Positions 47,239 to 49,399 of a stretch of 49,399 bases of DNA are shown here, piece by piece. Origin of the DNA: Chiloscyllium plagiosum (taxonomy: Eukaryota); NCBI RefSeq assembly GCF_004010195.1, contig NC_057759.1, positions 4,347,758 through 4,397,156 of the forward strand, written 5' to 3'. The translations under genes and the position numbers were made by a program. The notes below the pieces were generated by a model. The model made no database searches, was not told where the DNA came from, and saw nothing but the letters and a program-made list of their open reading frames with translations. Numbering within the stretch: the first letter of the stretch is position 1; every line of letters starts with the position of its first letter.

Positions 47239-47630
47239 TCACTTTTTAGCGGCGCCCCCAGCGGAGGTTTTCTTGGGCAGCAGCACGGCCTGGATATTAG
47301 GCAGCACCCCCCCCGAGCGATGGTCATCCCTCCCAGCAGCTTGTTGAGCTCCTCGTCGTTGCGCACGGCCAGCTGTAGGTGCCTGGGGATGATGCGGGTC
47401 TTCTTGTTGTCCCGGGCCGCGTTGCCGGCCAGCTCCAGGATTTCAGCCGTCAGATACTCCAGCACCGCAGCCAGATAGACCGGCGCTCCGGCACCCACAC
47501 GCTCAGCATAGTTACCCTTTCTCAGGAGCCTGTGAACACGGCCCACCGGGAACTGCAGGCCAGCCCGGGACGACCGAGACTTCGCCTTGGCACGAGCTTT
47601 CCCACCGCCCTTTCCTCCTCTTCCAGACAT
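47239..47630 (-). pseudogene. H2A: Histone H2A probable pseudogene (promoter displaced by retrotransposon; -1 frameshift near the C-terminus)
   Basis: [25 protein letters not shown]...LLGGMTIA, then GCTC-G8-TG where the intact copy has GCTCAGGGCGGGGTG (1 nt short); the paralogous TGA is at 47241-47239. Confidence 0.85.
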
Positions 47631-49399
47631 TTTTTTTAATTTCAAAAATATACTTTATTCATATATATTTAATCTATACAATTGGACATGTCATCATTCT
47701 GTACACATTCCATTTCTTTGCGTATCGAAACAGGGTAATCATTCCTATTCACAGGTTGGTGCGATTACATTGAGCGGAGCCCAAATGACTGCGTGGGCCC
47801 CCTGTTCTTCTTAGACAGGCAGATGTTAGACGGTGGTCTTTCCCCACCGCGCCTTGGCGGCAGCTGCCCCAAGCTTCAGCGCGTCCCTCAACACGTAGTC
47901 CTAGACCTTGGAATGTGCCAATTTGCAACACTCAGTCGGGGTCAACTCCTTCAGGTGGAAGATCAACAGGTTTCGGACCACCCAGAGAGCGTCCTTCACC
48001 GAGTTGATGATCCTCCAGGCACAGTTGATGTTCGTCTCGGTGTGCGTCCCGGGGAACAGGCCGTAGAGCACGGCGCTGCTCGGGATGAACCTCGACAGAC
48101 ACCACTGCATTTCTCTCCAGACTTCCTCTGCATAGGCACATTCCAGAAGGAGGTGTGTGACAGTCTCGTCCCCCCCGCAGCCGCTTCGAGGGCAGCATGC
48201 GGTGCGGCAGAGAGTGCGGGCGTGCATAAAGAATCTCACAGGCAGAGCCCTTCTCACCACCAGCCAAGCCATGTCTTGGTGCTTGTTGGAAAGTTCTGGC
48301 GATGAGGCATTCTGCCAAATGGCTTTGACAGTCTGCTCAGGGAACCGCTCGACAGGATCTTCCCTCTCCTTTTCCCAAAGGGTCTCAAGGACACTACGTG
48401 CTGACCACTTCCTGATGGACTTGTGGTCAAAGGTGTTTTTCTTGATAAATTTCTCCACGAAGGACAGGTGGTACGGAACGGTCCAACTACTCGGAGCGTT
48501 CCGCGGCAGCGAGGCCAGGCCCATCCTTCGCAACACCGGGGACAGGTAGAACCTCAGTACGTAGTGACACTTGGTGTTTGCGTACCGGGGATCCACGCAC
48601 AGCTTGATGCAGCCACACACAAAGGTGGCCATCAGGGTGAGGGTTGCATTGGGTGTGTTTTTTCCCCCATTGTCTTTGTACATTACATCTCTTCGGACCC
48701 GGTCCATCTTTGATCTCCACACGAAGTGGAAGATGGCCCGGGTGACTGCGGCGGCACAGGTTCTGGGGATAGGCCAGACCTCTGCCACGTATAACAATAC
48801 TGAGAGCACCTCACACCTGATGACCAGGTTTTTACCCGCGATGGAGAGCGACCGTTGCTCCCATCTGCCCAGTTTCTGTCTCACCTTCCTGATCCGCTCC
48901 TCCCAGGTCTTGGCGCATGCCCCAGCCCCCCCGAACCAAATACCTAGCACCTTCAGGTGGTCAGTCCTGATGGTGAAGGGGCTAGAGGATTGGTCGGCCC
49001 AGTTCCCGAAGAGCATGGCTTCGCTCTTGCCTCGGTTTACCTTGGCCCCCGAGGCCCGTTCGAACTGGTCACAGATGCACATGAGTCTGTGCACGGACAG
49101 CGGATCCGAGCAGAAAACGGCGACGTCATCCATGTACAGGGAGGCCTTAACCTGCAGACCCCCGCTGCCAGGAATAGTCACCCCTCTCAGGCTCGCATCC
49201 TTCCTGATGGACTCGGCAAATGGCTCTATGCAACACACAAACAAGGCAGGAGAGAGAGGGCAGCCCTGCCTAACTCCAGATCTGACTGGGAAGCTATCTG
49301 ATTCCCACCCATTGATTGAGACTGCACTGACAATGCTGGTGTAGAGCAGTCTGATCCAATTGCAAATTCCCTCCCCAAAGCCCATTTTGGAGACAACAT
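47631..49399 (-). mobile_element. L1/Tx1-clade non-LTR retrotransposon, 3' part of ORF2 (RT and zinc knuckle), 3' UTR and poly(A); continues beyond the window
   Basis: GVRQGCPLSP, YMDD, KSE, LGI and CPRSGC..ETVTHLLLEC; TAG at 47903-47901 probably premature, since the frame stays open to TAA at 47828-47826; AATAAA at 47659-47654; A7 tail at 47637-47631. Confidence 0.95.

What the first reader, a model, noticed from the sequence alone, without database searches (positions are those of the whole stretch)
47590..49399. L1/Tx1-clade retrotransposon inserted exactly at a histone H2A start codon: candidate histone/ATG-targeting element
Seen: on the minus strand the element's 3' end (AATAAA...gaaattAAAAAAA) runs straight into ATG TCT GGA AGA of H2A. 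No H2A 5' UTR remains, and element and gene share the same orientation. Established: the Tx1 clade includes sequence-specific families that target multicopy genes (Keno at U2 snRNA, Mutsu at 5S rRNA, Dewa at tRNA gene spacers), and tandem histone genes are a comparable redundant target. Inference: this may be a site-specific family that cuts at the A-rich context of histone start codons. It would then sit under a strong S-phase histone promoter while inactivating one redundant copy, which here also shows a frameshift and a stem-loop mutation. One copy cannot distinguish targeting from chance, and I cannot verify whether such a family is already described.
Basis: partly seen in the sequence, partly recalled or inferred. 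Interest (0 to 1): 0.78.

Follow-up and report, generated by a model that had tools for sequence, protein, structure and literature searches.

The report
Retrotransposon hotspot at histone gene starts
A dead copy of a jumping gene with more than a thousand copies scattered over this genome sits exactly at a histone H2A start codon; the family is not histone-specific, but histone gene starts have been hit far more often than chance predicts, likely because the DNA about 35 bases behind these strong promoters is exposed.

Summary
The junction is real: a Tx1-type LINE tail runs into the ATG of an H2A pseudogene. The proposed histone/ATG-specific family is not supported. The family has at least 1,391 dispersed 3' ends; 0 of the first 100 listed flank a histone and 3 of 100 start with ATG. 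The pre-insertion site is not A-rich. It carries U2-derived heads and Keno-site U2 flanks.

Histone starts are still a hotspot. The family also sits at the ATG of the sister H2A paralogue 79 kb away (15-bp target duplication, different subfamily body), at ATG+7 of an H2B and at ATG+5 of an H3, against about 0.001-0.013 expected. A Penelope-like fragment and several deletions break at the same zone. The H2A and H2B sites lie 35-36 nt behind the inferred cap site; the U2 site is at +38/39.

No daughter copies exist. Reads were inconclusive. This scan noted similar hotspots earlier in other shark-like genomes; I found none in the papers searched.

The parts
47631..49399 (-). Copy A: 3' 1.77 kb of a Tx1-type LINE, cut off at its 5' side by an assembly gap
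47826..49397 (-). ORF2 remnant (RT C-terminal half and zinc-binding region); private premature stop at 47903-47901, usual stop at 47828-47826
47639..47902 (-). 264-bp tract identical to sister copy B (0 differences); likely gene-conversion tract
47775..47776 (-). Site of a 12-bp deletion in the 3' UTR found only in copies A and B
47631..47659 (-). Poly(A) signal, constant family end and A7 tail
47616..47630 (-). First 15 bp of H2A; the same 15 bp form the target-site duplication around sister copy B
47239..47630 (-). H2A pseudogene coding sequence, 1-bp deletion near 47310
47193..47208 (-). Histone 3' stem-loop with a G>A change at its first base

Best explanation
This is a dead copy of a high-copy, dispersed Tx1-type LINE related to the U2-targeting Keno group, which landed at an H2A start codon likely because the stretch about 35 nt behind histone promoters is an exposed insertion and breakage hotspot, not because the element reads histone or ATG sequence. 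Shown: dispersal of the family, U2 heads and U2 flanks from nt 38/39, further family junctions at the sister H2A, an H2B and an H3, and non-family breaks in the same zone. Inferred: the endonuclease has only a loose preference (nick before A, often AT) and acts where DNA is open just behind a strongly fired Pol II promoter; histone 5' UTRs are 25-47 nt long, so that zone coincides with the ATG. Inferred: the sister copy B is a second insertion from another subfamily, and the two 3' ends were later made identical by gene conversion.
For: 1,391 exact 3' ends, 0 of 100 listed at histones, 3 of 100 at ATG (counted by eye). 13 target duplications among 61 ends share only a first A (11 of 13). Copy B has promoter, 5' UTR and a 15-bp duplication. 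A and B differ by 12.5% over 304 bp where each is 2-4% from a different subfamily, while their flanks differ by 9-15% in most blocks, so both insertions look younger than the duplication. H2B junction at ATG+7 from a third 3'-UTR type; H3 5' junction at ATG+5. Expected junctions within 30 bp of a histone start: 0.001-0.013. A Penelope-like fragment ends at another H2A ATG, and five more non-family breakpoints lie at ATG 0 to +12. H2A(B) and H2B sites are both 67 nt from the TATA box (H2B from intact paralogues).
Against: Only three further family events, all found by aimed searches. The H2B copy deleted about 150 bp of promoter and has no duplication; the H3 copy lost its 3' end, so these two may be repair captures or later deletions. 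Distance from the cap site cannot be separated from distance to the ATG with so few events. The cap-site motif is recalled, not mapped. The clustering of non-family breakpoints was not tested statistically and many other breakpoints are spread over promoter and coding sequence. A's own promoter side is in a gap. Reads did not show the junction.
Confidence: 0.55

Rival explanations
1. Active positional targeting: the element's proteins are tethered to something on snRNA and histone promoters and insert a fixed 35-38 nt behind the start site, as a carry-over of U2 targeting; the dispersed copies are leakage.
For: Sites at +36 (H2A B), +35 (H2B), +38/39 (U2), and 5' junctions at +46-50 (H2A B) and +48 (H3) from the inferred cap sites. 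U2 heads on three copies. TRE5/TRE3 show that APE elements can be placed by distance (PMC5006619 passages).
Against: Over 99% of copies are elsewhere. A Penelope-like element and plain deletions use the same zone, which needs no tether. Only 2 tail-U2 junctions were found genome-wide, both in dispersed copies. 3 of 7 family copies in the histone-region census are intergenic.
Confidence: 0.25
2. One chance insertion at an H2A ATG, copied to the sister paralogue by recombination with a switch to another family copy; the H2B and H3 junctions are by-products of deletions in a decaying gene cluster.
For: A and B are each other's nearest paralogues and share a 264-bp identical tract with a private deletion. 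The H2B and H3 cases come with deletions. Broken histone copies are common here.
Against: B has a normal-length duplication and 5' microhomology like other copies, a body from another subfamily, and is 434 bp shorter than A. The H2B tail joins directly to codon 3, an event expected about 0.001-0.013 times.
Confidence: 0.12
3. A sequence-specific family that cuts at histone start codons and uses the histone promoter.
For: Two H2A paralogues carry the tail at the same nucleotide; B lies directly behind an H2A promoter.
Against: At most 4 histone junctions among at least 1,391 ends; no ATG excess; no A-rich site; no separate subfamily, as the three loci come from three sequence types; no daughters; 0 of 6 visible 5' heads are histone-derived; in B the H2A frame stops after 8 codons.
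Confidence: 0.03
4. Assembly artefact: the junction or the second copy was created by misjoining repeats in a gap-rich assembly.
For: Both copies border N gaps; the 264-bp identity could be a collapsed repeat; no listed contig bridged the junction.
Against: A and B differ on both sides of the tract, at 47638 and from 47594 on, within 45 bp across the junction, and at five sites in 47903-47955; A is one coherent subfamily haplotype along its length; B has a target duplication.
Confidence: 0.05

Closest known systems
Keno (Tx1 clade, U2 snRNA-specific; PMC4640811 passages and section 6, PMC6136364 passages; the 2004 original paper was not seen)
   Same: APE-type element; two dispersed copies have the tail followed by U2 from nt 38/39, the published Keno flank.
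   Different: The bulk of the family is dispersed; no copy inside an intact U2 gene was looked for or seen; histone starts are also hit.
Tx1-Mar families and SINEU of crocodilians (PMC4494074 passages and section 15)
   Same: Keno-related Tx1 families with U1- or U2-derived heads and a changed or weakened target preference.
   Different: Their preferred targets are a Mariner transposon or LTR elements; no histone target is mentioned (the word histone occurs 0 times in the main text).
TRE5/TRE3 of Dictyostelium (PMC5006619 passages)
   Same: APE non-LTR elements placed by distance from a transcription unit rather than by sequence.
   Different: They target Pol III tRNA genes strictly and outside the gene; here the preference is weak, inside Pol II genes, and no tether is shown.
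Utopia (PMC4640811)
   Same: Uses the same U2 site; several families show weak specificity.
   Different: Restriction-like endonuclease, unrelated lineage.

Membership tests
Tx1-clade non-LTR retrotransposon | ORF2 with APE endonuclease, RT and C-terminal zinc-binding region | tested here: met
   RVT_1 and zf-RVT in the window; Exo_endo_phos E 9e-5, just under the Pfam cut-off, in family copy L096
Tx1-clade non-LTR retrotransposon | ORF1 with RNA-binding domains and CCHC knuckles | tested here: met
   RBD_ZCCHC3 1st and 2nd domains and zf-CCHC in copies L131 and L099; that this layout marks Tx1 is recalled
Tx1-clade non-LTR retrotransposon | RT phylogeny with named Tx1 elements | tested here: inconclusive
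   Quick tree of 109 rows: groups with amphibian elements (97) inside a 45-row clade (96) that holds a Danio protein named TX1 149 kDa and Takifugu BAD04856; no L1 outgroup, no reliably labelled Keno row
Tx1-clade non-LTR retrotransposon | Poly(A) tail, 5' truncation and short target duplications | tested here: met
   13 duplications of 11-22 bp among 61 ends examined
Keno (U2-specific) | 3' flank is U2 from nt 38/39 | tested here: inconclusive
   2 such junctions genome-wide, both in dispersed copies
Keno (U2-specific) | Most copies (over 20% by the rule in PMC4494074) flanked by the target | tested here: not met
   2 against at least 1,391 ends; U2 arrays may be unassembled
Histone/ATG-specific family (proposed) | Over 20% of flanks are histone starts, or ATG enriched | tested here: not met
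   0 of 100 histone, 3 of 100 ATG; 2 of 30, being A and its paralogue
Histone/ATG-specific family (proposed) | Copies spread from a histone-promoter source (histone-derived heads, daughters) | tested here: not met
   Private deletion only at A and B; no second promoter-element chimera among 40 scored of 1,642 candidates; 0 of 6 heads
Position-specific elements (TRE5-like) | Fixed distance to the transcription unit | tested here: inconclusive
   +35, +36, +38/39 in three cases, cap sites inferred
Position-specific elements (TRE5-like) | Element protein binds a host transcription factor | not testable with these tools
   no candidate partner known; no assay

The most novel reading that the evidence does not exclude
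A Keno-derived LINE lineage in cartilaginous fish finds targets by position, 35-38 nt behind the start site of snRNA and replication-dependent histone genes, through a host factor these non-polyadenylated Pol II genes share. U2 specificity would then be partly a promoter ruler rather than pure sequence reading, and histone genes a new protein-coding target class.
Probability: 0.22. Interest if true: 0.8.

Novelty: new variant of a known kind. Interest (0 to 1): 0.45.

Why it matters
Known Tx1 targets in the papers read are RNA genes, microsatellites and other transposons. A hotspot at the 5' end of histone genes, at nearly the same distance from the start site as the U2 site, gives a testable route by which a sequence-specific element relaxes or switches target. 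It is also one way histone copies die in a birth-and-death cluster. As it stands the effect concerns 3-4 of more than a thousand copies, the flagged copy is dead, and earlier scan notes already report the pattern in other genomes.

Tried and rejected
Inheritance of one insertion through the segmental duplication: rejected, flanks are 9-15% apart in most blocks and the bodies belong to different subfamilies. The extra Gly codon shared by A and B as a sign of common origin: rejected, 11 of 41 H2A genes have it. ATG or A-rich targeting: rejected. More histone junctions: H3 3'-junction pattern gave 0; 4 look-alike flanks picked from the 100 listed of 152 rows were 0 of 4 histone, and the 52 unlisted rows include the histone chromosome; a further 396 kb of that chromosome held 3 histone hits and no junction. 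One search was too loose to use. Reads: one laying succeeded; family copies swamped it and no listed piece bridged the junction, so it is inconclusive; no RNA holder was listed. Rfam did not detect the short U1-like head of L099, so that likeness is recalled only. BAD04856 could not be tied to a Keno name. Paper searches for a histone-targeted Tx1 listed none; Repbase, most subscription papers and the supplements of PMC4494074 were not seen and may hold a named shark family.

Full report
Observation. The minus strand shows a LINE 3' end (AATAAA at 47659-47654, A7 tail at 47637-47631) joined to the ATG of H2A at 47630. The upstream frame is an ORF2 remnant with RVT_1 and zf-RVT and a stop at 47903-47901 that 0 of 52 other copies share. 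The H2A copy has a 1-bp deletion near 47310 and a stem-loop change at 47208 relative to its sister gene. The window is G000:C50:4347758-4397156 in a 3.56-Gb genome. Earlier notes call it shark-like; I did not establish the species. A 3,508-N gap begins at the window end; beyond it lie an H2B gene and the start of the H2B-H2A spacer, so A's 5' junction is hidden. If the gap estimate holds, A is at most about 4.6 kb, shorter than the 5.3-kb copy L099, so it is likely truncated (inference).

The family is dispersed. The last 300 bp gave 2,408 candidates, 40 scored. Of 30 loci fetched, 2 are followed by H2A (A and a copy B 79 kb away), 1 by U2, and 27 by unrelated sequence. An exact end pattern has 1,391 matches; of the first 100 listed (contigs C1-C2 only) 0 look like histone starts and 3 begin with ATG, counted by eye. 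Among 61 ends examined, 13 had a target duplication of 11-22 bp; they share a first A (11 of 13) and little else. In three sequencing data sets the sequence beyond the tail has only 0.33-0.35 consensus agreement, and 262 RNA reads end in poly(A) there, which speaks for the family, not this copy. By the 20% rule in PMC4494074 (passage) the family is not target-specific.

What family. Other copies give an APE-like domain, two ZCCHC3-type RNA-binding domains and CCHC knuckles. A quick tree (109 rows; hits not covering the region were left out) puts ORF2 with amphibian elements inside a clade holding a Danio protein named TX1 149 kDa; there is no outgroup. Two dispersed copies have tail, then U2 from nt 38/39, then a second element end; this is the published Keno/Utopia flank (PMC4640811 section 6; PMC6136364 passage). 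Of 6 distinct 5' ends seen, 3 are U2-derived (Rfam E 7e-5 to 4e-3, below gathering score), 3 look U1-like (recalled; Rfam gave no hit) and 0 are histone-derived. U1/U2 heads are described for crocodilian Tx1-Mar families (PMC4494074 passage).

Copy B. It lies in an inverted segmental duplicate. Its 5' side is visible: H2A promoter, 5' UTR ending GTGACT, ATGTCTGGAAGAGGA, then the element, truncated at the equivalent of about 48965; the same 15 bp follow the tail. Empty paralogues confirm the duplication. So the site is not A-rich, and the H2A frame stops after 8 codons. A runs at least 434 bp further 5' than B. Substitutions between A and B: 12.5% (48965-48641), 4.7% (48640-47903), 0 of 264 (47902-47639), 3.1% in H2A, 12.7% downstream, 9-15% in most other flank blocks. 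In the first segment A is 2.5-3.7% from one subfamily and B 2.1-3.9% from another; A's haplotype normally goes with this 3' UTR type and B's mostly does not. A 12-bp deletion in the identical tract occurs exactly twice in the genome, at A and B. I infer two insertions younger than the duplication, then conversion of B's 3' end from A. One insertion copied with a template switch is not excluded. Neither copy left daughters with this 3' UTR, and no second promoter-element chimera appeared among 40 scored of 1,642 candidates.

Other histone starts. My reading before one search was chance plus copying; earlier notes on other genomes pointed to H2B hits and a spacing rule, which I then tested. A genome-wide pattern found 1 H2B junction: a tail of another 3'-UTR type joined at ATG+7, with about 150 bp of promoter deleted and no duplication. 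An H3 3'-junction pattern found 0. A lead was confirmed: an H3 promoter and ATG+5 joined to a truncated family body whose 3' end and the H3 gene are lost. The genome has 197 exact histone stem-loops; I fetched around 135 of them and found 164 histone-coding hits, some partial. Seven family copies lie in these 531 kb (overlaps included): 4 at histone starts, 3 intergenic. All 4 were reached by aimed searches, so the fair test is genome-wide: 0.001-0.013 junctions expected within 30 bp of a histone start, P of one or more at most 0.013 and of two or more at most 8e-5. Leaving A out, 2-3 are seen. A further 396 kb of C50 added no junction.

Position. From the inferred cap site (motif recalled, not mapped), 5' UTRs are 25-37 nt in H2A, 27 in H2B and 43-47 in H3. 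The B site is at +36, the H2B site at +35 (from intact paralogues), both 67 nt from the TATA box, and the U2 site at +38/39. The 5' junctions are at +46-50 (B) and +48 (H3). This fits a constant distance from the promoter, but three events cannot separate it from closeness to the ATG. The zone is not this family's alone: a Penelope-like fragment ends at another H2A ATG (label recalled, no Pfam hit), and a short repeat fragment and four deletions or rearrangements break at ATG 0 to +12. Many other breakpoints are spread elsewhere and I did not test the clustering.

Mechanism. Most likely (0.55) a loosely specific endonuclease acts where DNA is exposed just behind strong histone promoters. Active tethering, as for TRE5/TRE3 at tRNA genes (PMC5006619 passages), is the main rival (0.25). 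Chance plus copying gets 0.12, misassembly 0.05 and a histone-ATG-specific family 0.03. Against misassembly, A and B differ on both sides of the junction within 45 bp; reads neither confirmed nor refuted it.

Novelty. Six searches (listings and abstract starts only) showed no histone-targeted Tx1 element. Repbase, the 2004 Keno paper and supplements were not seen. This scan has noted similar hotspots in other shark-like genomes; those notes are not independent evidence. Verdict: real junction, dead copy of an ordinary dispersed Keno-related family, marking a modest but real hotspot at histone gene starts. New variant of a known kind, interest 0.45.

Noticed in passing
L024 and L057 (G000:C17:32874462, C11:81521340): Tail, then U2 from nt 38 (about 60 and 15 nt), then a second element end with its own tail at a random site: the layout expected if a tandem array inside a U2 gene was transcribed through and re-inserted elsewhere.
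   Followed up: partly
L091, L100, L019: U2-derived 5' heads all lack the same 5 nt (U2 35-39) at the Keno site, so the head carries a damaged copy of its own target.
   Followed up: partly
L239:2244-2936 (-): A Penelope-like fragment ends at an H2A ATG and happens to be in frame with it; the promoter side is in a gap.
   Followed up: partly
L186, L206: Two H2A copies carry a 90-bp fragment of a common repeat replacing codons 4-12.
   Followed up: no
L244, L249, L254: Three H2A genes have assembly gaps of 2.1-2.7 kb that all end at ATG+10; they could hide more insertions.
   Followed up: no
window 11375-11755, 12813-13202, 14794-15096: Intact-looking H2B (+) and H2A (+), and an H4 (-) that lacks three N-terminal codons and has G>R in the tail.
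   Followed up: no
window 46140-46400: Penelope-like RT fragment inserted in the H2A downstream flank of A and absent from the paralogous flank of B.
   Followed up: no
G000:C50: Most listed histone stem-loops lie on this 8-Mb contig, and many histone copies there carry internal deletions.
   Followed up: partly
L096:3090-3155: SNORD58 match (65.8 bits) about 0.8 kb from a family copy.
   Followed up: no
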